DNA of 64,000 nucleotides. Origin: a virus (lineage: Duplodnaviria; Heunggongvirae; Uroviricota; Caudoviricetes). Every line of letters starts with the position of its first letter. The first letter of the stretch is position 1. The stretch lies in IMG/VR virus record IMGVR_UViG_2917886563_000007; one strand, given 5' to 3'. Of this stretch, positions 1,369 to 21,488 are shown piece after piece. Below the pieces are notes generated by a model. The model was given only the letters and a program-made list of their open reading frames with translations, did not search any database and had not been told where the DNA came from. Made by a program: the position numbers and the translations under genes.

Positions 1369-1444
1369 GCCGATATAGCTCAGTTGGTAGAGCAGCGCAT
1401 TCGTAATGCGAAGGTCGTAGGTTCGACTCCTATTATCGGCACCA
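1369..1444 (+). tRNA. thrW: tRNA-Thr (thrW-like), integration hotspot
   Basis: 76-nt sequence GCCGATATAGCTCAGTTGGTAGAGCAGCGCATTCGTAATGCGAAGGTCGTAGGTTCGACTCCTATTATCGGCACCA with cloverleaf-compatible arms, CGU anticodon loop region, CCA end. Confidence 0.9.
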
Positions 1445-1766: not shown

Positions 1767-3032
1767 TCAGAAATCCTTTTTCAATACCAACACACAGTAG
1801 TAAAGCGTTGTCTTGATCAGATGATTCAAGTTGTGAACTTCTCTAAATAAAAGCAGTGACTTACGAATGAATTCAATGAACGTAATTTCTTGTGCTTTCT
1901 CTCTATTCATCCCTTCTTTGAAAGGGTAATACGTGATGACCTGAGTAGACTCCTTGTACTCATATTTGTAATGGGCTATCCCGTTTCTTAGTCGATTATC
2001 AATTGCCGTTTCATCAATCTTGTAGAAGCATTTATCAATAAACTGGAGTTTGGTTCCCAGGTCGGCATCGGCAAAAGCATTCAATGAAACAGCCTCCCGG
2101 CGCGGCTCATTCCTTCTCGTCACTTTCAAAGAGGGTTCAAATTCATTGTGATCACCGCGATGCAGAAGATTGTTAAGCCCCGCCAATAAGATCAACTGCC
2201 TAGAAAACACTTCTGCTAAGTCTTTATAAAAGTTGTTACAGGTATCAAAATCTGTTGTTGAAATCCTTGCAGCAACCGGGTTGTACTCCCCCTCTTTAAC
2301 GTAGTCATAAAAGAACGTCGCGCGAAATGGCAGATCTAACTCGATGATTTTAGGGTAAAGACTAAGGCAGTCTTGATGCAGATTTTGGAGGAAATTATTT
2401 GCCAGAATCTCATCAATATAAGCGACAGTTTTGTCATGATGATGCGCGTGAAGCCATTGATAAAGACCAGGTAGTTCATTAGAAAGCTCTTCGTTTTGCT
2501 CATGAATAGTAAAAGGGGATGACATGATTGAAGTAGCTGAGTACAACGCGGCCAATACGTCTTGTTTTTTATGAGAACGCAATGTAACCCCGGGTATCTT
2601 GTTGCAGATCCCATCTAACTTATCGATGTCGCCACGTTTGTACTGGGTAATAATGCGCTGCAAGTCTCTTTGCATCGGAAGAAGGCGATTCAATACCTCA
2701 AGGCGTTGAGCAAGATGATAATATGCGTCTTCACCAAGTTCACTGACAACCCGTATGAATGTCGTTTTCCCCATTTCGTACTTGCCAAAGTAGGCAGGGA
2801 AATCTAGATGCAAATCGACAAATGGGTTTTCCCCTTTAAATGGCCCATCAAAATCAACAATGTCCTCTGCCCCTTTTAACGTTCCATCCGGATGGCCAAT
2901 AATGAAAGAAATACATTCCTCACATACCGGGCAAGCAAACTGAAATGGTTGTACTTCTCTGTTGGACATGCCAATCCTGCAATCGATCAATGTACCGCAG
3001 GTATCGCATTTGAAGCATTTGCAGATGTTCAT
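1767..3032 (-). CDS. hypothetical protein with N-terminal Cys-rich zinc ribbon and C-terminal R-x4-H (HEPN-like, Abi-like) motif
   Basis: 421-aa ORF; N-terminus CKCFKCDTCGTLIDC...CPVCEEC; near C-terminus RLRNGIAHYKYEY resembles the Rx4-6H HEPN RNase motif of AbiD/AbiF-like proteins; low-GC codon usage relative to proA. Confidence 0.5.
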   Translation of the reverse strand: MNICKCFKCDTCGTLIDCRIGMSNREVQPFQFACPVCEECISFIIGHPDGTLKGAEDIVDFDGPFKGENPFVDLHLDFPAYFGKYEMGKTTFIRVVSELGEDAYYHLAQRLEVLNRLLPMQRDLQRIITQYKRGDIDKLDGICNKIPGVTLRSHKKQDVLAALYSATSIMSSPFTIHEQNEELSNELPGLYQWLHAHHHDKTVAYIDEILANNFLQNLHQDCLSLYPKIIELDLPFRATFFYDYVKEGEYNPVAARISTTDFDTCNNFYKDLAEVFSRQLILLAGLNNLLHRGDHNEFEPSLKVTRRNEPRREAVSLNAFADADLGTKLQFIDKCFYKIDETAIDNRLRNGIAHYKYEYKESTQVITYYPFKEGMNREKAQEITFIEFIRKSLLLFREVHNLNHLIKTTLYYCVLVLKKDF

Positions 3033-3489
3033 CCTTCCTCACCTTCATCTTTCTGATTAGGCTGTAATTCTACCTTACTGCAACTATGCTTTCACGACGT
3101 GAGGCCTGACTTACCTAGGGGCGGTTTAGAGATCGAGAATTATTGTACGGTATGCCCGTTTTTGAACGGGTGGTGTTATCGCAATAGGGTGTACTCCCCC
3201 GCTATATGGCATTTGGAGTGGCTTTTCCCTAACCGGATAACCTAAACGCGATGCTGCCAAGACGATAATTTAAAACCGATAGCCACTGGCGCTAAATCAA
3301 TCCCTTATGGGCTGGTGTGGTTAAATAACGAGCTAAACATACAAGATTTTCCGTTTCCCAAACTGATCCCAATACATGTCGTTTTGTTGATTGTCGCTCT
3401 ATATGGCTGATTTTAAGATAGCCCTTCCCTGTCTACTTCCATGTGTGGTGTAATCCCTTGCGAGATTAAGGTTTCTTTCGAGAGATAGC

Positions 3490-4149
3490 ATGGAATTATT
3501 CGAAAATTATTTGTCAGCGTTACCTAAAAAAAAGCGATTGAGTGAAGTCAAGTTGACTATCCTGAAGAGATTATGGGGCTCGGATGATATTGATTTTCCT
3601 AAACCTTGGGTCTCATCAATAGAACTACTGGAACTGACAGGGCAAAAGTACTTCGATAGACGAACAAGAGAATTGCGAGATGAACTAGGCTGTGATCTCG
3701 AAAGCTCGTACATTGCGGAGTTCTCGGGGCATGCTTGGCGGCTGAAATCAAGTATGATTGCCCCACCAATGGAAAGGGAATACCTGACAGAATCACAACG
3801 ATCCGGTTTATTTTCTAACCACAGCAATACATGTGCAACATGTGGTAAAACTGTTGCAGGTGGGGTCAGGGGGCTACAAGCGGATCACAAAATACCTTTG
3901 TCACGTGGTGGTGGAAATGAGTTAACCAATTGGCAAGCTCTTTGCCACAATTGCAACGTAGGTAAGAGAAGAGCATGTGAGGGGTGTACTGATGATTGTT
4001 ACACATGCTCATGGGCATTCCCTGAAAAGTTCGGGATTACTACAATGCTCCATCTGCCAGAAGCTGCTTTAAGAAAAGCTCAGCAGCTAGCCGATGCAAA
4101 TGGGATTTCATTAGACGAAATCGTTGCCTACGCAATACGCAAGCTCTGA
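3490..4149 (+). CDS. HNH endonuclease-domain protein (candidate restriction endonuclease)
   Basis: 219-aa ORF; C-terminal HNH motif ...CATCGK...ADHKIPLSRGGGNELTNWQALCHNCNVGK...; convergent with a C5 methyltransferase gene. Confidence 0.6.
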   Translation: MELFENYLSALPKKKRLSEVKLTILKRLWGSDDIDFPKPWVSSIELLELTGQKYFDRRTRELRDELGCDLESSYIAEFSGHAWRLKSSMIAPPMEREYLTESQRSGLFSNHSNTCATCGKTVAGGVRGLQADHKIPLSRGGGNELTNWQALCHNCNVGKRRACEGCTDDCYTCSWAFPEKFGITTMLHLPEAALRKAQQLADANGISLDEIVAYAIRKL

Positions 4150-4215
4150 ATATCATTTGACTCGAGTGGTAACGCCAACTGTTGTTTTTTCATGATGTCA
4201 ACAGCTTCGAGTGCT

Positions 4216-5199
4216 TTACGGATTTGCCTTCCTGTTGCCTCGGCAACAGGGGGGGGGGAAAGCGTTACCGACTTGACGATAAGCAGCTGTTTTTTTACCA
4301 GAGAATTTCCACCAGTCGGGGAAACCTTGGATTCGTGCAGCCATTCTTACAGTCAAACGAGGCATATTTTCAAAACCAGCCCGAACCTTTCCGTCTCTTC
4401 CAACATACCCGATAAACCCCTTTTCAGGGCCATTATCCGCTATGGAATGTCCATTGACTCCAAGCGCTTGCCAGGATCTTTTGGCTCTTGTCGGGCCAAG
4501 ATCTGGCCCCCCATGCTTATGGGAACCGCCAACAAGTGTAGGAGCTATATTATCTGCTGCCTTTCTCCAGGCTTCAGCTCCTTCCCAACCTCCCATTGAC
4601 ATTAAGTCAAAGAGGGCATCACCCACAGTCGGCGGTATCAACGTTTCACTCGGCCAATGAAAATGAGCTGCATATTCACCACGCAATGCGACTAAAAGAA
4701 CACGTGGGCGAAGCTGAGGAACTCCGTAATCAGAAGCATTATGAAGTTTCCAAAAGGTCTTATAACCCATTGCAGAGAAAGCATGATCTAGTTCTTGCCG
4801 ATATTGTTTAAACTTTGGGTCTAACAAACCTGAAACATTTTCAATCATTACTGCTTTTGGCTTAATAGTGTTCACAATTTTGAGCGCTGTCGGAAACAAA
4901 TCACGTTCATCATCTTTGCCAAGTTGCTTCCCTGCTTTTGAGAATGGTGGGCAGGGCACTCCCCCTGCAACCAAGTCAACATCAGAAAAATTATATGCAG
5001 TGTGTTCAGCAAAATGCTTAACGCAACCCTCTATGATATCTCCCCAACCTAAAGAATGGAGGTTATTGTTGAGGCGAAGAGTTTCGCAGGCTGCTGGATC
5101 AATCTCGACGAGTGCGCGGTGAGCGAAGCCAGCGTTATGTAACCCTAGAGCTTGACCTCCTGCCCCTGCACAAATCTCTACAGATGTATATTGTAACAT
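4216..5199 (-). CDS. DNA (cytosine-5)-methyltransferase, C-terminal tail affected by poly-C frameshift
   Basis: 327-aa ORF with C5-MTase motifs: EICAGAGG (motif I), GGVPCPPFSKAG (PC motif IV), MIENV (ENV motif VI), GNAF near the C-terminus; run of 10 C on coding strand right after GNAF PPP. Confidence 0.8.
   Translation of the reverse strand: MLQYTSVEICAGAGGQALGLHNAGFAHRALVEIDPAACETLRLNNNLHSLGWGDIIEGCVKHFAEHTAYNFSDVDLVAGGVPCPPFSKAGKQLGKDDERDLFPTALKIVNTIKPKAVMIENVSGLLDPKFKQYRQELDHAFSAMGYKTFWKLHNASDYGVPQLRPRVLLVALRGEYAAHFHWPSETLIPPTVGDALFDLMSMGGWEGAEAWRKAADNIAPTLVGGSHKHGGPDLGPTRAKRSWQALGVNGHSIADNGPEKGFIGYVGRDGKVRAGFENMPRLTVRMAARIQGFPDWWKFSGKKTAAYRQVGNAFPPPCCRGNRKANP
4249..4258. repeat. homopolymeric G10 (C10 on coding strand) tract inside the methyltransferase 3' end
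   Basis: Counted directly: ...cggcaacaGGGGGGGGGGaaagcg...; a 9-nt tract would give the tail PPPVAEATGRQIRKALEAV..., which looks like a natural motif X tail. Confidence 0.9.
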
Positions 5200-5598
5200 G
5201 CCATTAAACCTGTATATAAAAACAGTTGTATATTTATCTGATCAGAGACCATTACGCAACAAATTGTACAAAACAAGCAGTATCGTCGCCATTGAACCGG
5301 TCAGCTTAGTTACTTGATTACTGTATGACAAGGCAATCTACTACTTTGTTTTGGAATCCTCGATTTATCAGAGGACTAAAATTCATTAGTACTATGGGCA
5401 TCATCTGGATCAGATAAGCATTGTCTAATGCTGGTTGAGTAAAATGCCTCAACTGAGCACGAAAAAAACTACTATCTGTTTACATGATGTTCTGTCCGTA
5501 TGATGTATTGCGTCCACTGTAAGTAGCGGACGCATTATGCAAGGAGTAAATAAAGAAGAAAGATTAGTGATGAAGATTGGGAATGCTGCTCGTAGAAT

Positions 5599-5940
5599 TC
5601 AGCCTCCTAGGTCACTTTGGCTTCGTCGTAACAAGCCAGTTGCCTGTCGTGCTCGCAGGATATCTACCGCTCGAAGATAGGGTGATTGTTCCCGACAGTA
5701 GAACCCTCTGCGATCGATACGAACCAGTTCGTACTTATCTACCAAGAAGTTGACTGCATCGGCCAGGGTAATTCCGGCATCAATATGTTCCTTAATAACT
5801 GTTTTATCACTGAACGGCGTGTCGTTCAGTGTCAGGCCATAGTGCTGTTCCAGCAGGCGTGTCAGTAGCATTTGCCAGACAGCTACGGGCGACAGACAGG
5901 GCTTCGCCGCCCGCGAAATTGTAGCAGGTAGAGTTTTCAT
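5599..5940 (-). CDS. CbtA/YeeV/YkfI-family toxin
   Basis: 113-aa ORF resembling the YeeV/YkfI toxin family (…[15 protein letters not shown]…[14 protein letters not shown]…[11 protein letters not shown]…). Confidence 0.75.
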
Positions 5941-5959
5941 GCTTGCTCTCGTGAATTAG

Positions 5960-6277
5960 TTAGCGTTGAGTGGGATAAACAGCGATGTATGCGTAGCCGC
6001 AACTACCAAGGGTATCGGCTTCGCAGGTGAAACCATTGTGGTACAGGTTGACGCAGTGGGCATGTCGGGGATTCAGTTCACCGGTGATCAGCATCAATTC
6101 CATCTGGCTGATAAAGTGCGGGAAAGTTTCATCCAGTTTCCGGCATTCGGCGTCACTGAACTTACCGATGATGCTGGCCCGGTCAGCCAGGTAATGCAGC
6201 CGGTTCCCCTCCTGCACAAGGCGGGCTCCCAGGCGCGGCGTGATATCCCGCTGCAGGCCCCATGTGGTGTTGCTCAT
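5960..6277 (-). CDS. CbeA/YeeU/YafW-family antitoxin
   Basis: 105-aa ORF directly upstream of the toxin; …CFGARLVQEGNRLHYLADRA…ELMLITGELNPRH… resembles YeeU-type antitoxins. Confidence 0.75.
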   Translation of the reverse strand: MSNTTWGLQRDITPRLGARLVQEGNRLHYLADRASIIGKFSDAECRKLDETFPHFISQMELMLITGELNPRHAHCVNLYHNGFTCEADTLGSCGYAYIAVYPTQR

Positions 6278-6295
6278 TTATAACCTCTTTTATTG

Positions 6296-6529
6296 TCAGT
6301 TCAGGGTGATACTCATCAGGCAGGCATACGGTCCGTTGCGGTCCTGGCGGCGTTGGGCGTATACCGCCAGCACACCGGGAATGTCAGGAACCACCTGACC
6401 GGTGTAATGACAGACGCTACCGTGCCACTGATATTTTCCGGTGCAGTAGCGAAAGATTCGGGACTCAGGATGCTGGCGGTATATCGTCATTGCCCGGCGT
6501 TTACTGATAATTTTCATGTAATACCTCAC
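6296..6529 (-). CDS. YeeT/YkfH-like DUF987 protein
   Basis: 77-aa ORF (…MKIISKRRAMTIYRQHPESRIFRYCTGKYQWHG…) resembling YeeT family; conserved position between RadC-like and antitoxin genes. Confidence 0.65.
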   Translation of the reverse strand: MRYYMKIISKRRAMTIYRQHPESRIFRYCTGKYQWHGSVCHYTGQVVPDIPGVLAVYAQRRQDRNGPYACLMSITLN

Positions 6530-7002
6530 AGCAGACCGTGTCCTGCGAACGAATAGATTTGCCTGCCACCAACAATCAGATGGTCAGGGACACGGATATC
6601 CACCAGTTGAAGTACCTGAGTCAGTCGCTGCGTGAGGGCTTTGTCAGCCTGGCTGGGCGTCGTCTCGCCGGAAGGATGGTTATGCGCCAGTATCACCGCC
6701 GCCGCATTGAAGTGCAGTGCACGTTTGACCACTTCCCGGGGATGAACCTCGGTGCGGTTAATCGTGCCACTAAAGAGCGTCTCATGGGCGATAAGCTGGT
6801 TCTGATTATCCAGATACAGCACCCGGAACTCTTCCCGCTCAAGTGCGGCCATATGCAGTCGCAACCACTCCCGAACGGCGTGAGTGGAGGTGAAGGCTAC
6901 CCCGGGCTCATGCAGATGCCGGTCCAGAATCCTGAGCGCCCGCTGAATGAGACGCCGGTCCTGTGGCGTCATCTCGCCGGGTAAAAAGGAGAGCTGTTTC
7001 AT
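6526..7002 (-). CDS. RadC-like JAB/MPN domain protein (YeeS/YkfG family)
   Basis: 158-aa ORF with HNHPSG…T-P-S-x-AD motif typical of RadC-like JAB domain. Confidence 0.8.
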   Translation of the reverse strand: MKQLSFLPGEMTPQDRRLIQRALRILDRHLHEPGVAFTSTHAVREWLRLHMAALEREEFRVLYLDNQNQLIAHETLFSGTINRTEVHPREVVKRALHFNAAAVILAHNHPSGETTPSQADKALTQRLTQVLQLVDIRVPDHLIVGGRQIYSFAGHGLL

Positions 7003-7017
7003 CCGTTGTTCCTCCGT

Positions 7018-7476
7018 TCAGTCGATGATACGCAGAATGGAGTGAGCTTCAGGATGCTGCAGGGCATAGTCCCGCAAGCGATAATAGTGTGCGGTCATTG
7101 CGTCACATTCTGTACGACAGGCGTGATGGCTGTATTCAATCAGGCAGACCGCGATACCTGCGGCTTCCACACTCATTTCCGCACCATTACCGTTCATGCT
7201 GTTGAACAGATGCCATTTATCACCACCGTCAGCATCAGGGGCCATAAACGCACCGCCATTGCTGAGCGTGTAAAAGGACCAGATACCACCGCTGTACTCA
7301 TCACAGAAGCGCTCCATCCAGCCGAAAATACGGGGTTCCAGCGTTATCCACTGCGGAATAGCGCCAAAATACAGCGGCCAGAAATCGAGGCGCTGTTCGT
7401 CAGGTACTGGTGTTGCAGTGAGGTCAAATTGAGGTTCATTAGCGGACATCAATTCGCGTTTAGTTTGTGTCGTCAT
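7018..7476 (-). CDS. antirestriction protein (KlcA/ArdB-like, YfjX/YafX family)
   Basis: 152-aa ORF; …DEQRLDFWPLYFGAIPQWITLEPRIFGWM…YRLRDYALQHPE… resembles E. coli YfjX/YafX. Confidence 0.75.
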   Translation of the reverse strand: MTTQTKRELMSANEPQFDLTATPVPDEQRLDFWPLYFGAIPQWITLEPRIFGWMERFCDEYSGGIWSFYTLSNGGAFMAPDADGGDKWHLFNSMNGNGAEMSVEAAGIAVCLIEYSHHACRTECDAMTAHYYRLRDYALQHPEAHSILRIID

Positions 7477-7561
7477 GGATATTCTCCGTCAATAAAAACG
7501 CCAGCGACGATGGCTGGCGTATGGGAAATAAAGGGCATGCAGGGATGATGAATGGGTGTGG

Positions 7562-7798
7562 TCAGGAGGAGGATGCTCTGAGGATGCCTGACTTGCGGAT
7601 ATAACGGTTAAGCCCTTCACCGGCATCAGGTTCAAAGCACCACGCCCGCCAGACCATTCGACCTTCAGAGTCTCGAACCACCAGGCGGAAGTGGCTGCAC
7701 TGGTCATCTTCAATAGCGATATTTTTATACCGGCAGGTAACCGCTTCAGCCTGCTGTCGGGTGAACGGTCCCGGTGGCAACATATGAGATTCAGACAT
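7562..7798 (-). CDS. DUF905 protein (YkfF/YfjZ-like)
   Basis: 78-aa ORF …[15 protein letters not shown]…EDDQ…HFRLV…W…FEPDAG… matching the YkfF family pattern. Confidence 0.7.
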
Positions 7799-7875
7799 TC
7801 GGTGTACCTTAAAAGCAAAAGCCCCTGACGCAGACGCGTCAGGGGCTTTGGGAGTATGCAGGTGTCGGGTGATTG

Positions 7876-8286
7876 TCAGTAACCGGTTTGTACCTTATAC
7901 AGCCGCAGGGTTTTACTGCCCCGGACAATTTTCACATACAGGGCATTATCTTTCGTGCCTCGCACAAAACCGGCCTGCACATCGCCCTTACAGTCACCAC
8001 CATCGTAAGGAATGTTGACGCCGGTCTGACGCACCAGATCAATAATCCCGAAGCTTAAGTCCTCACAGGCCGGGCCCGGCAGGTCCTGAATCAGGGCAAA
8101 TTTATGGTCGTCGCTGACACCGGTCAGTGAGCACATGGAGGTGTTGATGTCGTTTCCCTGGCACCAGTACTCCTGGCCGGGATTGTCTTTATCCATCAGG
8201 CTTGCCGGAAGTTGAGCGGCACCGGCACTGAATGCGGCAAGTGACAGAATGAGAGCGGGTACAGCAGAGGTCATTATTTTCAGCAT
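7876..8286 (-). CDS. secreted hypothetical protein (signal peptide, 4 Cys)
   Basis: 136-aa ORF with N-terminal hydrophobic signal sequence ending AAQ. Confidence 0.5.
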
Positions 8287-8352
8287 GGTTTTCTTCCTGA
8301 ATTAATCCAGCCCGCTGTCGGGCAAAATGAGGGAGGTAGGTATCGGGTGTTA

Positions 8353-8790
8353 TCAGAAGCGCCGGTAGCGAAACAGCTCTTTGCCCTGGTACAACGCCAC
8401 CAGGTCGTCATATTCCGGCTTCTTCTGGTTGGGCATAAAGGTCACTACTGTGCCCGGACGGCACAGGTCTTTTACGGTGAGACCGAACTTCTTGTCCGGA
8501 GTAATGGTGAATCCCTTCGACACATCGTTGCGCATGATAGTTATCCAGCCCCACAGGCCGCCTTCGCAGTCTTTAAAAGGTGCTGAACGCACCGTGACCA
8601 TCCCGCCCTGACGGTCAACAGACATGGCTTCGCATTTTCCGGTAACCTGACGATGCGCATCACACCAGAAAATATTCCCGTTGTTGTCATTGACGACAGC
8701 AGGTAGCGTCCGGTTATAGGGCTGGGCCTGAGCCCCTGCACAAAGCAGAAGGCTGCCGGTAATGCCCAGTATTTTAATCAGTGTTTTCAT
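8353..8790 (-). CDS. secreted hypothetical protein (signal peptide, Cys-containing), possible distant paralog of upstream gene
   Basis: 145-aa ORF with signal peptide MKTLIKILGITGSLLLCAGAQA; similar W-C…C…C spacing to neighbour. Confidence 0.5.
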   Translation of the reverse strand: MKTLIKILGITGSLLLCAGAQAQPYNRTLPAVVNDNNGNIFWCDAHRQVTGKCEAMSVDRQGGMVTVRSAPFKDCEGGLWGWITIMRNDVSKGFTITPDKKFGLTVKDLCRPGTVVTFMPNQKKPEYDDLVALYQGKELFRYRRF

Positions 8791-8830
8791 TACGTTGGTC
8801 CTTAACAGGGAAGTATCAGGTAGCGGTGAT

Positions 8831-9367
8831 TCAGGCCCATACAGTCAGTGCCAGCATCACAAGCCATACCCAGAAGTAAGCCGGTTTCTGACCGAGGTTT
8901 TTCGCCCGACGCCACAGATAGAACGGCACCAGCCAGGCCAGTTTGCCGAACGTGGCGGTGTCCACTCCGGCCTTACGCAGGCGTCGTTCATCGAGATACC
9001 CCAGAGCGATATTGAGCAGCAGCGTGATAAACCAGTACTGCCCGCCCGAGACAGCCTCATATGCCTCGTCAAAAGACATTCCGTTCAGCCCTGCAGTCCA
9101 CAGCTCGAGCGCATAACCAATGAAGGGAGCAAATGCCAGCGTCCATACCACTGCACCCGGAATGCGGTTCCCCGGCAGCGCTGGTGGTGTAGTGCTGTGG
9201 AGCAGCGCTGAAGCCAGCGGGGTGGCGGAGACCGGTTGCCAGTCTGTCATGCCCTGTCGCCACACCAGCGTGGCAGCGGTGAGTTCACCGCGCGCAATCA
9301 GGCCAGTGATGTCGTCTTCGGTCACATTGTCGTGACGTATGCCATTTTTCTCGTAATGCCAGGTCAT
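8831..9367 (-). CDS. inner-membrane protein with N-terminal GYF-like (DUF4339-like) domain
   Basis: 178-aa ORF; N-terminal W…G…W motif region followed by hydrophobic helices. Confidence 0.45.
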   Translation of the reverse strand: MTWHYEKNGIRHDNVTEDDITGLIARGELTAATLVWRQGMTDWQPVSATPLASALLHSTTPPALPGNRIPGAVVWTLAFAPFIGYALELWTAGLNGMSFDEAYEAVSGGQYWFITLLLNIALGYLDERRLRKAGVDTATFGKLAWLVPFYLWRRAKNLGQKPAYFWVWLVMLALTVWA

Positions 9368-9392
9368 TGTTTTTCCTTCTTAACAGAGGTAA

Positions 9393-10103
9393 TTAAATCA
9401 GTGTGTTGCCCTGCTCCTCCTCAGAGGGCCCAGGAGACAGGACTTCACGAATACAGCTGAAGTGCGGAAGAGCCCGGATAAAGCCCGCCTGTGTGGTTAA
9501 CTGGCTGAGACGTTTTCGCGGGGTAAAAGTGGTGTTCAGGACTGTCACCGCATGGATGGTCGCCAGAGGGTGCACGGTGATATGCCCGTTAAGTTCACCA
9601 GTGAGGTACCAGCAGCCGTCGAGTGATATCAGGCGGTACGGGGCCAGCCCGTCACAGCGCTCTCCCTCGGCCAGCAGCAGTACCCGCTTGCAGGCGGTAA
9701 TGGCACTGACAAGACGGTAGAACACCAGTGAGATGGACGGTGATATAGTCTGTGGCGGCTGCCACACCAGGCACGGCATCCCTCCTGCAGTGAGCAGCAT
9801 GCCCGCCAGACGCCGGTCCAGCCCCGGAAAAATATCGGCCAGTCCGGCCCGGTGCGCGAAGGTCAGCGCATCGAGCTCGCCCTGTACGCCCCCACCGGTG
9901 CTACGCAGGCGGCATTGCCCCCGTCGATACTCAAGGTCGAGGTACAGCAGCCGTTCACGAAAATCCCGTCGCAGGGTACGGACTGACACACCAAACTCTG
10001 CAGCAAGTCGCGTCATGTTCAGCGTTTCACCGGCAACCAGGCGGCTGATTATCAGTGACAGCCTGACAGCCAGCCGGTCGTGACGGCGCTCTGCCTGTGT
10101 CAT
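9393..10103 (-). CDS. HTH-WYL domain transcriptional regulator (YfjR-like)
   Basis: 236-aa ORF; N-terminal HTH (…LNMTRLAAEFGVSVRTLRRD…) and C-terminal WYL-type region (…LISLDGCWYLTGE…). Confidence 0.65.
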   Translation of the reverse strand: MTQAERRHDRLAVRLSLIISRLVAGETLNMTRLAAEFGVSVRTLRRDFRERLLYLDLEYRRGQCRLRSTGGGVQGELDALTFAHRAGLADIFPGLDRRLAGMLLTAGGMPCLVWQPPQTISPSISLVFYRLVSAITACKRVLLLAEGERCDGLAPYRLISLDGCWYLTGELNGHITVHPLATIHAVTVLNTTFTPRKRLSQLTTQAGFIRALPHFSCIREVLSPGPSEEEQGNTLI

Positions 10104-10311
10104 CTCGAATCTCCGTAATAATTAACTGACTGAATATGAAATGATTCTAAAGAGGGGGGCGGACAGGGTATGGACACGGAATGAACTATTTTTTCTCTGC
10201 CACCGGAGGCAGGCCCGACGCGGCACACCGTGAAATACGGTGATAAAACACTCAATCCAATGGTGGTAAAACGGACAGGGAGTGTCCTTTCCCAACATAC
10301 TGATAACAAGC

Positions 10312-11136
10312 TCAGGACTGAAACCCACTCAGCATCGCTTCCGCTATCACCCAGAGAGCCCGGTTGAGCTTCACATCTCCGTCGATACCACGCACGGCGC
10401 GGGTATGCGTTCGCCCACCTTTTGCACTCCGACCACTGAGCCCGCCCTTAATCAGGTTCTCCTGAATACGCTGGTATGTGGTCCACAGATCATTGCTCTC
10501 ATCCTGCCAGCGGCGTGGGGAGAGTATCTGAGGTGCTGTCACCGGCTGGTGGTCCTCACCGAAACGGTACGTCAGTGCAGCCTGTGCCAGAGCCTGTTGT
10601 GCAGGTGGCGTCAGCATCAGCGACTGCATGGCATCCCGCTTCTCTTCCACACGGTCAAAAATCCCCAGCACTTCATACGCTCCTTCGATCACCTGACTCA
10701 CCACATCCCCTTTGTGCGGCACACGCACCTCGCCAAACGACTCACCGCAGACGAGTCCGTTCTGGCATACCGCACGGAATAATCCCGGTAGCATCTGATA
10801 CGAGCTGGAGCCGTCGTGAGAATTGAGCAGAATAATTTCCGGGACCTGCTTACCGGTAATCTGCCCCTCCCGACGCAGGCGCAGCATGTGCTTTGTATGC
10901 TCGCGACGCCCTGGGTCAGGTACTCGAGTCTGGCAGGCAAAGAACGGCTGAAAGCCTTCGCGCTGCAGGTTTTCAAGTACAGTAATTGTTGGTATCCAGG
11001 TATACCGGGCACTCCGGGACGCATGCTTCTCCTCACTGAACACACTGGGTACCACGCGATACAACTCTTCACGGGTTAACGGCCGGTCACGACGGATAAG
11101 ATTTGCTGCGCCAAAGCGCGAAGCCAGACGGGTCAT
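10312..11136 (-). CDS. DUF932 protein (YafZ/YfjQ family)
   Basis: ORF 10312..11184; likely start at internal Met (MTRLASRFG) giving about 274 aa; resembles YafZ/YfjQ. Confidence 0.7.
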   Translation of the reverse strand: MTRLASRFGAANLIRRDRPLTREELYRVVPSVFSEEKHASRSARYTWIPTITVLENLQREGFQPFFACQTRVPDPGRREHTKHMLRLRREGQITGKQVPEIILLNSHDGSSSYQMLPGLFRAVCQNGLVCGESFGEVRVPHKGDVVSQVIEGAYEVLGIFDRVEEKRDAMQSLMLTPPAQQALAQAALTYRFGEDHQPVTAPQILSPRRWQDESNDLWTTYQRIQENLIKGGLSGRSAKGGRTHTRAVRGIDGDVKLNRALWVIAEAMLSGFQS

Positions 11137-12093: not shown

Positions 12094-12367
12094 CTCAACT
12101 CCGCTGAAAAGTAAAACATAAAACGGTAAAACCAAATGGTTTTACCGTTTAAAAGGAAATGTTCAGGGGAATGATATATATCTTAATGTTTTTAGAATGG
12201 ATTCATATATGATGTTGATCTTATTCAAGATATCCTAGAGTATCATTCTGTTGATAACATATTGAATTTGGTTAAAATAATTGAGCCTGATATCCCTTTT
12301 TACTGAATTTCAAGAGGTATTGGGTTGTGTTCGTTCGCCCAATTCTATTGATGACAAGGAAAAGCAA

Positions 12368-15300
12368 ATGGTTAGTAGCCAGTATCCCCGGGGTTCAGAA
12401 TGGCATAAGTGGGATTTACATATTCACACTCCAGCATCTTTTCATTGGAATGGCCCGAGATTTAAGTCAGATCCACGCTCACCAGAGAACGCCCCACTAG
12501 TGGATGCAATGATCAATGCTATGAATGCAGCAGAACCAATCGCATTTGCGATTATGGATTATTGGACCTTTGATGGATGGTTTGCGTTAAAACATCGATT
12601 GACGCAAGAAGATGCCCCCAAGCTAGAAAAAACCGTTTTTCCTGGAATTGAATTGCGGTTGATGGCGCCAATGCGTGGAAGGCTAAATGCTCACGTTCTT
12701 TTTTCTGATCATATACCAGATCAGGAGCTTATTGATTTCAAGAGTAAACTAGAGGTTGCTCTAATAAATAAGTCATTATCAGATTCAGCCTTAATCCAAA
12801 TAGCTAGGGAGGCTGCACCAGATAAATTGCGGCATCATAGTCTCAACCAACAAAAGATTCTTCAATCTGATGCTGATGCTCTCAAGGCTGGTTCAATAAT
12901 AGCCGAGGTTACATGTGAGAGTTATCAAAAAGCAATTAACAGTGTCAGCAAAAATCAAGCTATTGGGTACATGCCATTTGATACCAATGATGGGCTTACT
13001 GAAATTGAGCGTAACGCGCATTATGCATTCGCATTAACTCTTTTCAAGACATCACCAATATTTGAAACAAGGGATTATGCTACGTGGGCAGCTTTCGCTG
13101 GTGTAAAGGTCCCTGAAAATGAAAGGTGGTTTGATGCTTTTCAAAAGGCTTTAAATAATAAACCTAGACTTGCTATTTCAGGGAGTGATGCTCACTGCTT
13201 TGTTGGAGAACCTGGTAACAATGATCGCCGAGGATATGGTGACTACCCTTCAGGAAAGGCAACATGGATAAAGGCTAATCCAACATTTGACGGATTAATG
13301 CAAGCAATAAGAGAACCAGCAAAACGTTCATTTATTGGTGCTATTCCTAAAAAACGGAAATTAGTAAGCGAAAACAGAAGTCTATTTATTGAAAAGCTAG
13401 AAGTTAAAAAATCAATTGATTCATCAATCAATGAATCCTGGCTCGACAATACGGATATACATTTAAATCACGATTTAGTCGCTATTATTGGTAATAAAGG
13501 TAGTGGTAAAAGTGCATTGGCTGATATTGCAGCGTTGCTTGGTAACTCTAAACAAAGTCATCATTTTTCCTTCCTAAAGGAAAATCGATTTAGAGGAAAA
13601 ACAGGTGAGCCAGCACGTCACTTCAATGCAAAAATAGTATGGAGTGATGAAAAAGAGTTAACAAAAAACCTTAATGATAATCCAGCAACTGAAAATGTTG
13701 AATTAATAAAATACATTCCACAAGGCCATTTTGAAGAGTTGTGTAATGCTCATGTATCGGGCCAATCAGATGCATTTGAAAAAGAACTAAGATCTGTAAT
13801 CTTCTCACATGCAGATGAATCTATACGCTTAGGTGCTCATGATTTTGAAGATCTGATAGAAAAGCAGGAGAGCTCTCTTCGAAGCCAACTAGAAAGCTAT
13901 CGTAGTGAGATGCATAAACTCAATGAACAAGTAATGTTTATTGAGAGCCAAATGACCGATGAAGCAAAAAAAGCACTTGATGAAATGTTGGCTCAAAAAG
14001 TTAGATTACTGGAAGAGTTGATCAAAGCAAAGCCAGAAGAAGTTCCTGAACCATCTAATGAGCTTACACAGGAACAACAACAAATATCTGAACAGCTATC
14101 AAACATCAATCAAGAATTAGAAAAGTTACAGAAGCAGCAAGAATCAGACCTAGAAGAACTTACAAAGTTAGCCGGAAAGAGAAAAGCAAGCAAGAATATT
14201 AAGGCTGGTTTTGAAATCGTCAAACGTGCAGTTAATCAATTTGTGTCAGAGTTTGATTCAGATGCTAAACTCCTTGGTTTGGATATAGAGAGTTTAGTTA
14301 GAGTTGATGTTGATGAAAAAACTCTCTCTGCATTAGACGATGCTGGTTCACTTCGTGAAAAAGAAATCAAAGAACGTCAATTAACCCAAGTGGCTAGTAA
14401 ACAATTAATTTTGGAGAAAAAAGCTCCACTAAATGCACAGTTGAATGCCCCACAACAAGCATACCAGTTGTTTAAAGAACAGCTCAAAGCTTGGGGTGAG
14501 AAACATGCAGCATTATTAGGAAACAAAGATGATCCAGATACACTCGAAGGTATCAAGCATAGAATATCTAAACTGGAGCAACTTCCAAGTCAACGATTAG
14601 AATTACATGAGAAACGAAACGATTTGACTCGAAAAATTTTTACAATTCTTAATGAGCAAAAAGAGAATCGTGAAACCCTTTTCGAACCAGTACAATCACT
14701 TATTCAAAATAATATTCTTATCCGTGATGAATACAAACTACAATTTAGAGCTGAACTAAGTAGCACTGCAGATCTAATTTCAAATAGATTATTTTCCATT
14801 GTTAAGCAAGCGTCGGGTGAATTTAGGGGCGAATCAGAGAGTCTTTCAGTAATTAAAGACCTTATGGATCGACATGATTTAAATGACCAAGAATCTTTAC
14901 TCATGTTTGTCCAGGAATTGCACAGAAAACTAGAGAGTTCTTCTAAGAATCCAGTTGGTGTAGCTTCATTGTTACGCAAAGATCGTACAGCTAATGAAGT
15001 TTATGACCTTATTTTTGGCTTAGAGTACCTTGAGCCAAGATATACATTAATGTTTCAAGATGCTCAAATAGGACAATTGTCTCCTGGACAAAGAGGGGCC
15101 TTACTTCTGATTTTCTATCTGCTTGTGGATAAAGGAAATACACCAATAATTCTGGACCAGCCTGAAGAGAATCTTGACAATGAAACTATTGTTAGCCTGC
15201 TTGTACCTGTTTTAACGGAAGCAAAGCAAAAACGACAGATTATTATGGTTACACATAATCCGAATCTTGCAGTTGTTTGTGATGCAGAGCAAATTATCCA

Positions 15301-15442
15301 TTGTGAGTTTGATCGCACAAAGGGGCACAAAATAACATATACCCCAGGAGCTATTGAGTGTAGCGTAATTAATAACAAAGTGGTTGATGTTCTTGAAGGA
15401 ACTATGCCTGCATTTGATAATCGTAGAATGAAGTATATGTGA
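12368..15442 (+). CDS. PHP-domain nuclease fused to SMC/Rad50-like ABC ATPase with long coiled coil (Ppl-like candidate antiphage protein)
   Basis: ORF 12281..15442 (1053 aa); best start ATG 12368 after AAGGAAAAG RBS. N-term PHP motifs (WDLHIHTP…, …SGSDAH…), Walker A IIGNKGSGKS, about 450-aa coiled-coil region rich in E/K/Q/L, C-terminal Walker B/D-loop ILDQPEENLD and H-loop MVTHNP. Confidence 0.7.
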   Translation: MVSSQYPRGSEWHKWDLHIHTPASFHWNGPRFKSDPRSPENAPLVDAMINAMNAAEPIAFAIMDYWTFDGWFALKHRLTQEDAPKLEKTVFPGIELRLMAPMRGRLNAHVLFSDHIPDQELIDFKSKLEVALINKSLSDSALIQIAREAAPDKLRHHSLNQQKILQSDADALKAGSIIAEVTCESYQKAINSVSKNQAIGYMPFDTNDGLTEIERNAHYAFALTLFKTSPIFETRDYATWAAFAGVKVPENERWFDAFQKALNNKPRLAISGSDAHCFVGEPGNNDRRGYGDYPSGKATWIKANPTFDGLMQAIREPAKRSFIGAIPKKRKLVSENRSLFIEKLEVKKSIDSSINESWLDNTDIHLNHDLVAIIGNKGSGKSALADIAALLGNSKQSHHFSFLKENRFRGKTGEPARHFNAKIVWSDEKELTKNLNDNPATENVELIKYIPQGHFEELCNAHVSGQSDAFEKELRSVIFSHADESIRLGAHDFEDLIEKQESSLRSQLESYRSEMHKLNEQVMFIESQMTDEAKKALDEMLAQKVRLLEELIKAKPEEVPEPSNELTQEQQQISEQLSNINQELEKLQKQQESDLEELTKLAGKRKASKNIKAGFEIVKRAVNQFVSEFDSDAKLLGLDIESLVRVDVDEKTLSALDDAGSLREKEIKERQLTQVASKQLILEKKAPLNAQLNAPQQAYQLFKEQLKAWGEKHAALLGNKDDPDTLEGIKHRISKLEQLPSQRLELHEKRNDLTRKIFTILNEQKENRETLFEPVQSLIQNNILIRDEYKLQFRAELSSTADLISNRLFSIVKQASGEFRGESESLSVIKDLMDRHDLNDQESLLMFVQELHRKLESSSKNPVGVASLLRKDRTANEVYDLIFGLEYLEPRYTLMFQDAQIGQLSPGQRGALLLIFYLLVDKGNTPIILDQPEENLDNETIVSLLVPVLTEAKQKRQIIMVTHNPNLAVVCDAEQIIHCEFDRTKGHKITYTPGAIECSVINNKVVDVLEGTMPAFDNRRMKYM

Positions 15443-17924: not shown

Positions 17925-18161
17925 TCATCGTTTTTCTTCAGAAGCGAAGAGAGTGTGGATATAGCTTTGAACGTCATCCCAGAGCCAGTAGTTTTTTTTG
18001 TTAATTTTTTTTGGTCTTACCAAACCAGATGGTAATTGATCTTGGCACAACCATTTTCTGATTGTTTGCGGTTTACAATTCAACAGTTGTGCTAAATCAT
18101 TAGTAGAAACAAGTCGGATGTTGCTTGGAGATGATGCTTCACTTATTTGAAATTTGCTCAT
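17925..18161 (-). CDS. AlpA-family transcriptional regulator / excisionase
   Basis: 78-aa ORF; HTH …LVSTNDLAQLLNCKPQTIRKW… typical AlpA/phage excisionase. Confidence 0.7.
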   Translation of the reverse strand: MSKFQISEASSPSNIRLVSTNDLAQLLNCKPQTIRKWLCQDQLPSGLVRPKKINKKNYWLWDDVQSYIHTLFASEEKR

Positions 18162-18762: not shown

Positions 18763-20160
18763 TCAACACTCGATTTTTTCATAAATAGAGGCCTGTTCTA
18801 AGATCCAGCTCTCAATTTTTTCATGCCATTTACGCAACAAATCTAATGGACGACGACGGTAGTGTTTCTCAGCTAGAGCACTAGGTTTATGGCCCATAAT
18901 CTGCGCAACTATGCCAGTTGGCACTTCGACCCATTCGGCGAGCGTACCAAAACTACGACGTAATCCATGCAGGCTGATGTGTGGTAATTCAGCCTTAGCT
19001 AAGGCCCGATTGTGTGCGGAACGCGGTTCAATAATTTTGCCGCTTTTGCTATTACTCCTGAAAACCCAATCCTCCTTATTTACGTCAGAATTTGGTGTTT
19101 GCACCAATGCGCGTAACAGGTGAGTGACATAAGGAGTAAGAGGTATGATACGTTCGCCTTCGATCTTGTCTTTAATCCGCATACTTGACCATTTGAAATC
19201 GACGTCAGACCACCGAAGTGACGCAATTTCTTCGCGTCGCGCTCCGGTGAGTAAAAGTACCTGGAGATAGGCCGATGCAATGGGATTGTTGAGGTTACGC
19301 ACGGCACTGAACCAGCTTTTTAACTGTTCTTTTTGTAAGCAATCTCCCGCTTTACTCGCTGATACTGGAACCAATTTTCTCACGTTATGATCTTGTGCAA
19401 GATCGCCATGGATTATTCCCTGATATTTTTTCTGGTAATTAACCCATTTGATAAATGCACGCAACAGACGGTAGGCATGAGCAGTGACGGTAGGCCGATT
19501 TTGTCTTTCTGTACTTAGCCATGCGGCAATGTTCTCTGGTGTTAGTTCCGATAACGGTAGGTCGAGCAAGCTAGCCAATGGTCCAGCCGAGGTTGGGCCC
19601 CGGCCTCTTTTTTTACTTTCTCCTCCACGGCTGGACAAGTTCACGTGATCGGCAATATAACGTGCAGAGTAAGGACGTTTAGTTTTTGCGCTGATTCCGG
19701 TTCTCAATTCTTGAAGATAATCTTCCCAAGCGCTTGAGAAGGTTACCTTCGTTTTACGAGATTCAGCCTGCTGTGATTCCGCTTCAGCAATTTTTTCTGC
19801 TTTAGCTATACGCGGATCTATCCCAGTATCGATTAATGTTTGCAGCCGCCTGGCTTCGGCCCTGGCATCATCAATCCTCCAATCGTTAATGTTGCCAATG
19901 GTCATGCGAAGGGTTTTTCCCGCATATACGCTTTGGAACACAAAAGCTTTTGTTCCGCGAGTTGCCCGGCATGCCAGAGTTGTTACATCCGCATCCCAAA
20001 GAAATGCTTGGTTTTTCCCTTCAGTTAAAGCAAATTTTCGAATACGCTCGAAGGTGAGTTTTTGTCTCGGAAGTGCCATTTTTGGGCTCCAGATGAGAAA
20101 GGTTACATCACCATAATGTAACGGCTGGTGTAAGTAAATTAGGGGAATACACATCAACAC
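18763..20160 (-). CDS. tyrosine integrase (P4/IntF-like)
   Basis: 465-aa ORF (alternative start at 20079, MALPRQK); C-terminal catalytic residues …HGLRRSF…IMGHK…Y…; adjacent to the tRNA-derived repeat. Confidence 0.85.
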   Translation of the reverse strand: MLMCIPLIYLHQPLHYGDVTFLIWSPKMALPRQKLTFERIRKFALTEGKNQAFLWDADVTTLACRATRGTKAFVFQSVYAGKTLRMTIGNINDWRIDDARAEARRLQTLIDTGIDPRIAKAEKIAEAESQQAESRKTKVTFSSAWEDYLQELRTGISAKTKRPYSARYIADHVNLSSRGGESKKRGRGPTSAGPLASLLDLPLSELTPENIAAWLSTERQNRPTVTAHAYRLLRAFIKWVNYQKKYQGIIHGDLAQDHNVRKLVPVSASKAGDCLQKEQLKSWFSAVRNLNNPIASAYLQVLLLTGARREEIASLRWSDVDFKWSSMRIKDKIEGERIIPLTPYVTHLLRALVQTPNSDVNKEDWVFRSNSKSGKIIEPRSAHNRALAKAELPHISLHGLRRSFGTLAEWVEVPTGIVAQIMGHKPSALAEKHYRRRPLDLLRKWHEKIESWILEQASIYEKIEC

Positions 20161-20261
20161 CTGTCAATTTTTATCAACAGGTGTGTTTTATAAGTTAATG
20201 TTTTATAATGAACTAATTGTTTTAAGAGTAGGTTTTTAAAGGGGTAAAAGTATAATAACGT

Positions 20262-20310
20262 CGCATTCGTAATGCGAAGGTCGTAGGTTCGACTCCTATT
20301 ATCGGCACCA
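20262..20310 (+). repeat. 49-bp direct repeat of thrW 3' end (att core; pseudo-tRNA)
   Basis: cgcattcgtaatgcgaaggtcgtaggttcgactcctattatcggcacca identical to 1396-1444; flanking approx 20 bp also similar (t(c)taaatcaat(a/t)agttac). Confidence 0.9.
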
Positions 20311-20324
20311 TCTAAATCAATAAG

Positions 20325-21488
20325 TTACACATCATTAGTACCTTCCTTATTTTTTGACTGGGACAAATTTGGGACCGATGGGTTCAGGATCGAGTCTATT
20401 TGCCGTGCGTGTTCGGTAAGGTGATTAGGTGCAAGGTGAGCATATCGACGAACCATTTCGATAGACTCCCAGCCTCCCATTTCCTGTAACACTGACAACG
20501 GGACTCCGGCTTGAACCAGCCAACTTGCCCAGGTGTGTCTCAAGTCGTGAAATCTGAAATCATCAATACCAGCCCGTCTCAGCGCCGCTTTCCAGGCTGT
20601 GTTTGCGTCATACCGCATCTTCCTTACTGTTGGCGCTTTCGTTCCGTCTGGTTTGGTACAGCTTTCCTTGTACACAAATACCCAACGGTGATGATTCCCG
20701 ATTTGTTTTTTCAATACGCGACATGCAGTATCATTCAGCGCAACGCCAATTGCGCGGTTTGATTTACTCTCTTCCGGGTTTATCCATGCCACCCGGCGCT
20801 GCATATCTATTTGTTGCCATTCAAGGTTGATGATGTTCGAGCGTCTTAAACCTGTTGCCAGTGCAAATTCAACAACAGACTTTAATGGCTCCGGACATTC
20901 ATCAATCAGCCTTTGTGCTTCATGAGGCTCCAGCCAGCGGATCCGTTTATTCTTTGGTTGAGGCACTTTAATAATTGGTGCCTTATCCAGCATTTTCCAT
21001 TCACGCTCTGCGGCTCTTAGCAGGGCCTTTATAAATGAAAGATGCGTTGCCTTCGTTGCAACGGACGCTGGTTTTGGCGTGTATTCTGGAACTGGTTTCC
21101 CTTTTTTTCTGCATGCTTCTGCCCTGAGTTTCCAGTTTTCCTCATGACGCCGGTTCGTCATTTTCTGCATTGCTGAATAAATTTTTGATTCAGTAATGTC
21201 TCTTAGTTGCATTCCTGCGAAATGTTGAAGCCAGAATCCGATCCGGCTTTTGTCATCGTCCAGTGATTTTTTATGTGCTTTCTCTTCGAGCCACCTGACA
21301 CACGCCTCCTCGAACGTCATATCAGGTATTTCACCAAGTTTGCTGACCCGCCATGCTTCAGCCTTTAGCTTGTCATGGAGCTCTGTCGCCTGCCTTTTGT
21401 CCTTTGTTCCAAGAGACTGTTTAAATCTTTTACCGTTCGGCAATGTGAAACTGGCGTACCATATTTCACCTCTGCGGAAGAGTGACAT
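20325..21488 (-). CDS. int: tyrosine integrase (P22/DLP12 IntD-like)
   Basis: 387-aa [44 protein letters not shown]… matching P22/DLP12-type Int as recalled; stop codon 14 bp from tRNA repeat. Confidence 0.9.

What the first reader, a model, noticed from the sequence alone, without database searches (positions are those of the whole stretch)
4249..4258. Homopolymeric G10 tract scrambles the methyltransferase C-terminal tail (possible phase variation or frameshift inactivation)
A run of 10 G (10 C on the coding strand) lies right after the conserved GNAF of the methyltransferase. As sequenced the protein ends PPPCCRGNRKANP. With 9 nt the tail would read PPPVAEATGRQIRKALEAV…, which looks like a natural motif X tail and would extend about 41 codons, overlapping the convergent HNH gene end. 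Either this is a slipped-strand switch controlling the methyltransferase next to a nuclease, or a homopolymer sequencing error.
Basis: seen in the sequence. Interest (0 to 1): 0.6.

Follow-up and report, generated by a model that had tools for sequence, protein, structure and literature searches.

The report
Probable sequencing miscount in methyltransferase gene
The run of ten Gs that breaks a DNA-methyltransferase gene is most likely a one-base miscount by the Ion Torrent sequencer, because every relative, including a separately assembled copy of the same clone, has nine Gs and an intact gene, so the finding is ordinary and not a genetic switch.

Summary
The G10 run at 4249-4258 is real in the window and does scramble the methyltransferase tail as described. 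With nine Gs the protein is identical, residue for residue, to a 356-aa protein recorded on 62 public contigs.

- **Origin of the run.** It is made by the Phe-Pro-Pro-Pro codons (TTC CCC CCC CCT) of motif X. Sister alleles encode the same residues with runs of only 2 or 8 C, so the tract is incidental and not conserved.
- **Relatives.** All 22 distinct relatives with this allele read G9.
- **Homologues.** All 119 with motif X keep the helix PPPVA(E/K)..G..I..AL. None has the G10-frame tail.
- **Source.** The window is Escherichia cryptic clade II strain E4736 (PDHX01000024.1), sequenced only on Ion Torrent, which cannot count homopolymers longer than 8.
- **Same clone.** A Logan assembly of another run is identical over 8,478 bases except for G9 here.
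- **Neighbour.** The gene is the modification half of a Type II restriction-modification pair. The HNH nuclease beside it is intact, so a true loss of methylation should be harmful.

Verdict: probably a homopolymer sequencing artefact (about 0.7), possibly a private slippage mutation (about 0.2). An evolved phase-variation switch is unlikely (about 0.05). Low interest.

The parts
4249..4258 (-). G10 on the + strand (C10 on the coding strand), spanning the last base of the Phe codon and three Pro codons of motif X (GNAFPPP). Relatives with this allele have 9.
   Evidence: C9 in 24 loci held (22 distinct records). C10 only in the source contig (L108/L113).
4216..5199 (-). C5 cytosine DNA methyltransferase ORF as sequenced (327 aa), ending in the out-of-frame tail CCRGNRKANP.
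   Evidence: Pfam PF00145 E=2e-65. TIGR00675 dcm. PADLOC MTase_II. 60% identical to M.NgoMIV.
4128..4247 (-). Displaced natural C-terminus (VAEATGRQIRKALEAVDIMKKQQLALPLESNDIQSLRIA*), read only if the tract is 9. It contains the conserved helix that follows motif X.
   Evidence: translation; 119 of 120 homologues have PPPVA[EK]..G..I..AL; it aligns with the C-terminal helix of M.HaeIII (1DCT).
3490..4149 (+). Convergent HNH endonuclease gene (219 aa), the probable Type II restriction partner. It is intact.
   Evidence: Pfam PF01844. PADLOC REase_II PDLC03478 E=5e-21. Exact protein listed in 370 blocks of the public collection. All family-invariant residues present. Linked to the methyltransferase across taxa.
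1369..1444 (+). tRNA-Thr (CGU), thrW, the insertion site of the genomic island that carries the R-M pair.
   Evidence: Annotation of relatives.
1767..2969 (-). 400-aa ORF of unknown function between thrW and the R-M pair. It served as the handle that found the source assembly.
   Evidence: No Pfam, NCBIfam or PADLOC hit. Exact protein listed in 74 blocks.

Best explanation
The tract is an incidental homopolymer, and the tenth G is most probably not in the DNA. In one allele lineage of this methyltransferase, the motif X residues Phe-Pro-Pro-Pro are spelled TTC CCC CCC CCT, which makes a C9 run. The window comes from an Ion Torrent-only draft assembly, and Ion Torrent infers homopolymer length from signal strength and is unreliable above 8 bases. 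The true gene is then most likely the intact 356-aa methyltransferase (identical to P0122), the modification half of a Type II restriction-modification pair whose HNH nuclease gene converges on it with a 22-nt overlap. Shown: the anatomy, the identity of the G9 frame with a widespread protein, the uniformity of G9 in relatives, the sequencing platform, and the G9 reading in an otherwise identical clone. Inferred: that the extra base arose in base-calling or assembly and not in the cells.
For: 1. The repaired protein equals P0122 exactly (356 aa, 62 contigs). 2. All 24 loci held with this allele (22 distinct records) read C9. C10 occurs only in the source contig. 3. The source is GCA_004745245.1 / PDHX01000024.1, 100% identical to the window over 7,969 bp. 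It is Escherichia cryptic clade II strain E4736, sequenced on Ion Torrent single-end reads at about 100x and assembled with MIRA plus SPAdes (PMC6639607). 4. [quoted passage not shown] 5. L120, a Logan assembly of run SRR8835208, is identical to the window over 8,478 bp except for G9 here, and encodes P0122. The same run's proA contig (L114) is 100% identical to the source. 6. A Logan assembly of run SRR6053163 (L115) differs from the source contig only by a 1-bp indel that splits proB. Indel calls in these data therefore depend on the assembler. 7. The HNH partner is intact: its exact protein is widespread and it keeps all invariant residues. A real loss of the methyltransferase should therefore be selected against, by established post-segregational-killing logic for Type II systems. 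8. The exact 327-aa product is absent from the 15-billion-protein collection.
Against: 1. Bragg et al. report that long homopolymers on Ion Torrent are mostly under-called (PMC3623719). A true G9 would more typically be read as G8, so an over-call to G10 goes against the usual bias. 2. The assembly is otherwise clean. The A8 run inside the HNH gene is correct, and all other 1-bp indels against relatives in about 40 kb are intergenic by my mapping onto annotated gene coordinates. 3. I could not verify which strain or platform run SRR8835208 comes from, and no raw reads could be inspected. 4. The same +1 product on the other protein backbone is recorded once (P0142, an ENA metagenome contig), which would also fit genuine recurrent slippage.
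Confidence: 0.7

Rival explanations
1. The +1 insertion is genuine and private to this isolate. Replication slippage in the C9 run produced C10 in strain E4736 or in the sequenced culture, which makes the methyltransferase a recent pseudogene. Survival beside the intact nuclease would need low nuclease expression, residual activity, or leaky restoration of the frame. A +1 ribosomal shift of tRNA-Pro on CCC-C within the tract would recreate the exact wild-type protein.
For: Indel rates rise exponentially with homopolymer length in E. coli (PMC8510543), so a 9-10-base G/C run is an intrinsic hotspot. The direction of the change (+1) is opposite to the usual Ion Torrent under-call. The assembly shows no other coding frameshift. 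The same C10 product exists once on another backbone (P0142). CC[C/U]-[C/U] sequences are slippery, with up to 1% +1 frameshifting at the most shift-prone position (PMC4519876), so some full-length enzyme could still be made.
Against: An otherwise identical clone has G9. The platform cannot count runs of this length. The nuclease is intact. About 1% of the normal methyltransferase level is unlikely to protect a whole chromosome (inference). The lost helix is conserved in every homologue that retains motif X and in M.HaeIII, so the truncated protein is probably inactive.
Confidence: 0.22
2. The tract is an evolved slipped-strand phase-variation switch (a contingency locus) that turns the methyltransferase ON and OFF reversibly, as in the phase-variable methyltransferases of Helicobacter, Neisseria and Haemophilus.
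For: A long G/C homopolymer lies inside a methyltransferase ORF. Two datasets of one clone differ only in tract length, which is also what is seen between laboratory stocks of H. pylori strains (PMC3936762). In H. pylori JHP1272 a poly-C run likewise encodes a poly-proline stretch.
Against: The tract is not conserved. Alleles of the same gene spell FPPP as TTT CCT CCT CCT, TTT CCC CCC CCT or TTC CCC CCC CCT, and no other family member has a C run longer than 6. All 22 distinct relatives with the C9 allele are in frame. The deviants are an Ion Torrent draft, a nanopore-type metagenome contig (L101, G8, with a second indel inside a Dcm/Dam motif), and the one metagenome contig that encodes P0142 (known only as a protein). 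C8 and C11 frameshift products are absent from 15 billion proteins. The switch would sit at the 3' end of the gene, beside an intact restriction nuclease. Reviews describe such switches mainly for Type I and III systems (PMC12707154). Escherichia has mismatch repair (general knowledge).
Confidence: 0.05
3. The short G10-frame tail is a natural, functional variant ending of the enzyme.
For: Motif X up to GNAFPPP is retained. Pfam still matches residues 5-319.
Against: None of the 119 homologues that keep motif X ends this way. The shortest natural tails still contain the whole helix: 21 residues from the G of GNAF, and M.NgoMIV ends 5 residues after it. The out-of-frame DNA downstream still encodes the conserved tail perfectly. 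That shows the shift is very recent or unreal.
Confidence: 0.02

Closest known systems
Homopolymer-length miscalls of flow-based sequencers (Ion Torrent, 454), which create false frameshifts in draft assemblies
   Same: Single-base length difference in a run longer than 8 bases. Ion Torrent-only data. The gene is intact in every relative and in a second assembly of the same clone. A second assembler-dependent indel (in proB) occurs in the same data.
   Different: The usual bias for long runs is under-calling, whereas here the run is one base too long. The rest of the assembly is clean.
Slipped-strand phase-variable DNA methyltransferases (phasevarions; H. pylori JHP1272/HP1353-1354 poly-C/poly-Pro switch)
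   Same: A G/C homopolymer of 9-10 bases inside a methyltransferase ORF, encoding prolines. A one-base change turns the reading frame off.
   Different: The tract is not conserved between alleles. There is no spread of tract lengths among strains. It lies at the 3' end of the gene. The system is Type II with a separate, intact nuclease. The host is mismatch-repair proficient.
M.NgoMIV / R.NgoMIV Type II restriction-modification system of Neisseria gonorrhoeae (GCCGGC)
   Same: The methyltransferase is 60% identical along its full length, including most of the variable target-recognition region and the C-terminal helix.
   Different: There is a 14-residue insertion in the variable region and a 25-residue longer C-terminus. 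The partner nuclease is an unrelated HNH protein with a winged-helix N-terminal domain instead of R.NgoMIV, and it is convergent instead of co-directional. The specificity was not determined.

Membership tests
SSR-driven phase-variable methyltransferase (contingency locus) | Hypermutable simple repeat within the ORF or promoter | tested here: met
   G10 (G9 in relatives) inside the ORF.
SSR-driven phase-variable methyltransferase (contingency locus) | Several tract lengths, both ON and OFF, among closely related strains | tested here: not met
   C9 in 24 loci (22 distinct records). The deviants are the Ion Torrent source (C10), a nanopore-type metagenome contig (C8) and one metagenome-derived protein.
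SSR-driven phase-variable methyltransferase (contingency locus) | Repeat maintained across alleles and lineages despite synonymous alternatives | tested here: not met
   FPPP is spelled with C runs of 2, 8 or 9 in close alleles. Elsewhere in the family the run is 6 or shorter.
SSR-driven phase-variable methyltransferase (contingency locus) | OFF state tolerated (orphan methyltransferase, or nuclease absent, inactive or co-switched) | tested here: not met
   The HNH gene is intact, identical to a widespread allele, and keeps all invariant residues. Its activity was not assayed.
SSR-driven phase-variable methyltransferase (contingency locus) | Measured reversible switching with matching methylation change | not testable with these tools
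   Needs colony resequencing and methylome data.
Type II restriction-modification system (m5C methyltransferase + HNH nuclease) | C5 methyltransferase with the conserved motifs | tested here: met
   PF00145 E=2e-65, TIGR00675, PADLOC MTase_II. Motif IV (PCPPFS) and motif X (GNAFPPP) are visible in the translation. The helix after motif X is intact only in the G9 frame.
Type II restriction-modification system (m5C methyltransferase + HNH nuclease) | Adjacent nuclease gene of a restriction-enzyme family | tested here: met
   PADLOC REase_II PDLC03478 E=5e-21 over nearly the full length. Pfam HNH.
Type II restriction-modification system (m5C methyltransferase + HNH nuclease) | Linkage of the two genes conserved across unrelated hosts | tested here: met
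   An HNH homologue (55-99% identity) is convergent and abuts the methyltransferase in Citrobacter, Dryocola, Dickeya, Thiothrix, Neptuniibacter, cyanobacteria, Victivallis and Moraxellaceae loci.
Type II restriction-modification system (m5C methyltransferase + HNH nuclease) | Site-specific cleavage blocked by the cognate methylation | not testable with these tools
   Biochemistry is required.
Programmed frameshift or transcriptional-slippage gene | Out-of-frame arrangement conserved in homologues | tested here: not met
   Homologues encode a single continuous frame through this site.

The most novel reading that the evidence does not exclude
The G9/G10 difference between two datasets of one clone is real. 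In that case a Type II m5C methyltransferase in a mismatch-repair-proficient Escherichia switches ON and OFF by slippage in a poly-proline-coding C tract while its HNH restriction partner stays intact. OFF cells would survive because +1 ribosomal slippage of tRNA-Pro on the same CCC-C tract regenerates a trickle of wild-type enzyme.
Probability: 0.05. Interest if true: 0.6.

Novelty: not a real feature. Interest (0 to 1): 0.1.

Why it matters
It matters mainly as a caution. A frameshift at the longest homopolymer of a flow-sequenced draft should not be read as biology until the platform and sister assemblies have been checked. Tracing the window to its source assembly through neighbouring-gene look-ups settled this case. 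If the extra base were real, it would be an unusual example of a restriction-modification system that loses its protective half while keeping its nuclease, in a host not known for repeat-driven switching. The present evidence makes that unlikely.

Tried and rejected
- **Exact look-up of the 327-aa product** found nothing.
- **PLSDB plasmids** gave no match to the locus.
- **Species-representative genomes** did not contain the source strain, but did give the family-wide codon and neighbour survey.
- **Metagenome pattern scan** allowing 6-13 bases across the tract found 7 loci, none with a deviant length.
- **Two papers** on HNH/methyltransferase systems (PMC8989522 and PMC11473606) describe unrelated systems.
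- **HNH structure.** The AlphaFold model (mean pLDDT 79) matched only winged-helix regulators weakly in the PDB. No hit reached E=0.001, so it did not identify a solved restriction-enzyme relative. The sequence search gave only the McrA HNH core at E=0.01.
- **A generally noisy assembly was rejected.** The other indels against relatives are intergenic.
- **The short tail as a natural ending was rejected**.
- **The Logan contig of run SRR6053163 that covers the tract could not be displayed**, because similar places are collapsed by the look-up tool.
- **Not verified:** the mapping of SRR6053163 and SRR8835208 to strains and platforms.

Full report
**The observation.** Window 4249-4258 is a run of ten G, the only homopolymer of nine or more bases in the 64 kb. 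It lies on the antisense strand of a 327-aa ORF (4216..5199, minus strand) that is a C5 cytosine DNA methyltransferase (Pfam PF00145, E=2e-65; TIGR00675). On the coding strand the sequence reads GCT TTC CCC CCC CCC TGT TGC ..., so the protein ends GNAFPPPCCRGNRKANP*. Removing one base gives GNAFPPPVAEATGRQIRKALEAVDIMKKQQLALPLESNDIQSLRIA*, 356 aa. That ORF ends at 4128 and overlaps the 3' end of the convergent HNH gene (3490..4149) by 22 nt. On composition alone the run is only mildly unusual. It exists because three proline codons follow a TTC codon.

**Which frame is natural.** Of the 120 best, 119 retain motif X, and all 119 continue with PPPVA(E/K)xxGxxIxxAL. The remaining entry is a truncated fragment. 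The shortest natural tail still contains that whole segment, and none has the G10-frame ending. In M.HaeIII (PDB 1DCT) the segment aligns with the C-terminal helix that follows motif X. The repaired protein is identical, residue for residue, to P0122, a 356-aa protein recorded on 62 contigs. The displaced tail is still perfectly encoded downstream in the other frame, so the shift is either very recent or not real.

**Where the tract comes from.** Close alleles of the same gene spell Phe-Pro-Pro-Pro in three ways:
- TTT CCT CCT CCT in the E. coli O111/A39 clade, which accounts for 56 of the 58 complete E. coli genomes that carry the locus.
- TTT CCC CCC CCT in L110.
- TTC CCC CCC CCT in the lineage to which the window belongs.

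Across about 50 more distant family members the longest C run at this site is 6. The homopolymer is thus a by-product of synonymous codon choice in one allele lineage. It is not a maintained repeat.

**Tract length in relatives.** Look-ups through the methyltransferase protein would be biased towards in-frame copies, so I also reached the locus through its neighbours: the exact HNH protein, the adjacent 400-aa ORF, CbeA and RadC. I added a gapped DNA pattern scan of metagenome contigs and megablast against complete E. coli genomes.
- Of the loci held with the homopolymer allele, 24 (22 distinct records) read C9.
- C10 occurs only in L108 and L113, which are the same contig.
- One locus, L101, reads C8. 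It is a 'polypolish' nanopore-type metagenome contig that also has a 1-bp deletion inside CCAGGATC, a Dcm plus Dam motif, and so looks technical.
- Exact look-up of the six possible frameshift products (C8, C10 and C11 on the two backbones) among 15 billion proteins found one, the C10 product on the other backbone. It is on a single 4.6-kb ENA metagenome contig, against 145 contigs for its in-frame parent.

**The source of the window.** L108, contig PDHX01000024.1 of GCA_004745245.1, is 100% identical to the window over 7,969 bp, including G10. No methyltransferase gene is on record for that contig. The accession leads to a genome announcement (PMC6639607). [quoted passage not shown] It was sequenced only on Ion Torrent (single-end 35-400-nt reads, about 100x) and assembled with MIRA and SPAdes. 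This also explains why proA is only about 95% identical to any complete E. coli genome. [quoted passage not shown]

**An independent reading of the same clone.** The window's exact RadC variant exists on only four contigs. The one displayed, L120, is a Logan assembly of run SRR8835208. It is identical to the window over 8,478 bp (window 2525-11002) with a single difference, G9 instead of G10, and it encodes P0122 and the same HNH protein. The same run's proA contig is 100% identical to the source. A Logan assembly of another run, SRR6053163, matches the source except for a 1-bp deletion that splits proB, which is intact in the GenBank assembly. Indel calls in these data therefore depend on the assembler. 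Judging by accession numbering, these runs are probably the project's own. I could not verify that.

**What the gene pair is.**
- The HNH protein (219 aa) matches a PADLOC Type II restriction-enzyme model over nearly its whole length (E=5e-21).
- It keeps every invariant residue of its family, including the D-H catalytic pair and two four-cysteine clusters.
- It is found convergent and abutting the methyltransferase, at 55-99% identity, in Citrobacter, Dryocola, Dickeya, Thiothrix, Neptuniibacter, cyanobacterial, Victivallis and Moraxellaceae loci.
- An AlphaFold model shows a confident N-terminal winged-helix-like domain, a zinc/HNH core and two C-terminal helices, but it has no close solved relative.
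- The methyltransferase is 60% identical to M.NgoMIV. I identified M.NgoMIV through its downstream neighbour R.NgoMIV (PDB 1FIU). A GCCGGC-like specificity is therefore possible, but that is an inference.

This is an ordinary Type II restriction-modification module on the thrW island. By the established logic of such systems, losing the methyltransferase while keeping the nuclease should be harmful. That argues against a fixed, genuine OFF allele.

**Weighing the explanations.**
- *Artefact, about 0.7.* It accounts for the platform, the G9 reading in the identical clone, the uniform G9 in relatives, the intact nuclease and the perfectly preserved out-of-frame tail. Against it: long runs on Ion Torrent are usually under-called, not over-called, and the assembly is otherwise clean, since the other indels against relatives are intergenic and the A8 run in the HNH gene is correct.
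- *Genuine private slippage mutation, about 0.2.* Indel rates rise exponentially with run length (PMC8510543). If real, the allele might be slightly leaky, because CCC-C is a classic +1 frameshift site for tRNA-Pro, with up to 1% at the most shift-prone position (PMC4519876). A +1 shift anywhere in the tract would regenerate the exact wild-type protein. That step is inference.
- *Evolved phase-variation switch, about 0.05.* This would resemble the H. pylori poly-C/poly-Pro methyltransferase switches (PMC3936762). It fails on three tested criteria: tract conservation, a spread of tract lengths among strains, and tolerance of the OFF state.

**Verdict.** The feature is most probably a homopolymer miscount in an Ion Torrent draft, lying on an incidental proline-codon run in an ordinary Type II methyltransferase gene. 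Interest is low. The decisive test is accurate resequencing of strain E4736 across the tract, or inspection of its raw reads.

Noticed in passing
window 3490-4149; L028 5940-6800: The same methyltransferase family (60% identity to M.NgoMIV) is paired with unrelated nucleases in different hosts. In Escherichia and many other bacteria the partner is a convergent HNH/winged-helix protein. In Neisseria gonorrhoeae it is the co-directional R.NgoMIV.
   Followed up: partly
window 1767-3032 (minus strand): A 400/421-aa ORF with a cysteine-rich N-terminus and no Pfam, NCBIfam or PADLOC hit lies between thrW and the R-M pair. Its exact protein is listed in 74 blocks of the public collection, usually in the same position.
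   Followed up: no
window 12281-15442 (+): A 1053-aa SMC_N/AAA_21 ATPase in the same island gives weak to moderate PADLOC hits (Ppl 1.6e-18, mad3, AriA). It may be a defence-related gene.
   Followed up: no
L102 (Logan SRR9693746, 8 contigs): In the O111-type allele, the HNH gene ends differently (212 aa) from about window position 3957-3964 onward, and the methyltransferase lies on the same strand. This could be an inversion or an assembly artefact at the convergent overlap.
   Followed up: no
L101 (ENA ERZ27273442 contig_1538_polypolish): This nanopore-type metagenome contig is 99.55% identical to the window. It reads G8 at the tract and has a 1-bp deletion inside CCAGGATC (Dcm plus Dam motif), giving a 252-aa truncated methyltransferase (P0013). 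It shows how database 'variants' of this gene arise technically.
   Followed up: yes
L115 (Logan SRR6053163) versus L113 position 4231: A 1-bp deletion (CTGAACG to CTGACG) splits proB in one assembly but not in the GenBank assembly of the apparently same clone.
   Followed up: yes
L119 (ENA ERZ27238671 k111_5121): At the island position next to CbtA, where the R-M pair sits in the window, this contig carries a 984-aa ORF with no domain hit instead, which suggests cargo exchange at this spot.
   Followed up: no
window 18763-21488 and about 21500-64000: Two tyrosine-integrase genes lie back to back (465 aa with an Arm DNA-binding domain, and 387 aa). They are followed by a lambdoid prophage (replication, lysis, terminase, portal, tail genes) that is 95-98% identical to E. 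coli prophages.
   Followed up: partly
window 17992-18012: Two T8 runs separated by 5 bases lie in an apparently intergenic stretch upstream of the island's DUF3987 gene. Like the G run, their lengths are at the limit of what Ion Torrent data can support.
   Followed up: no
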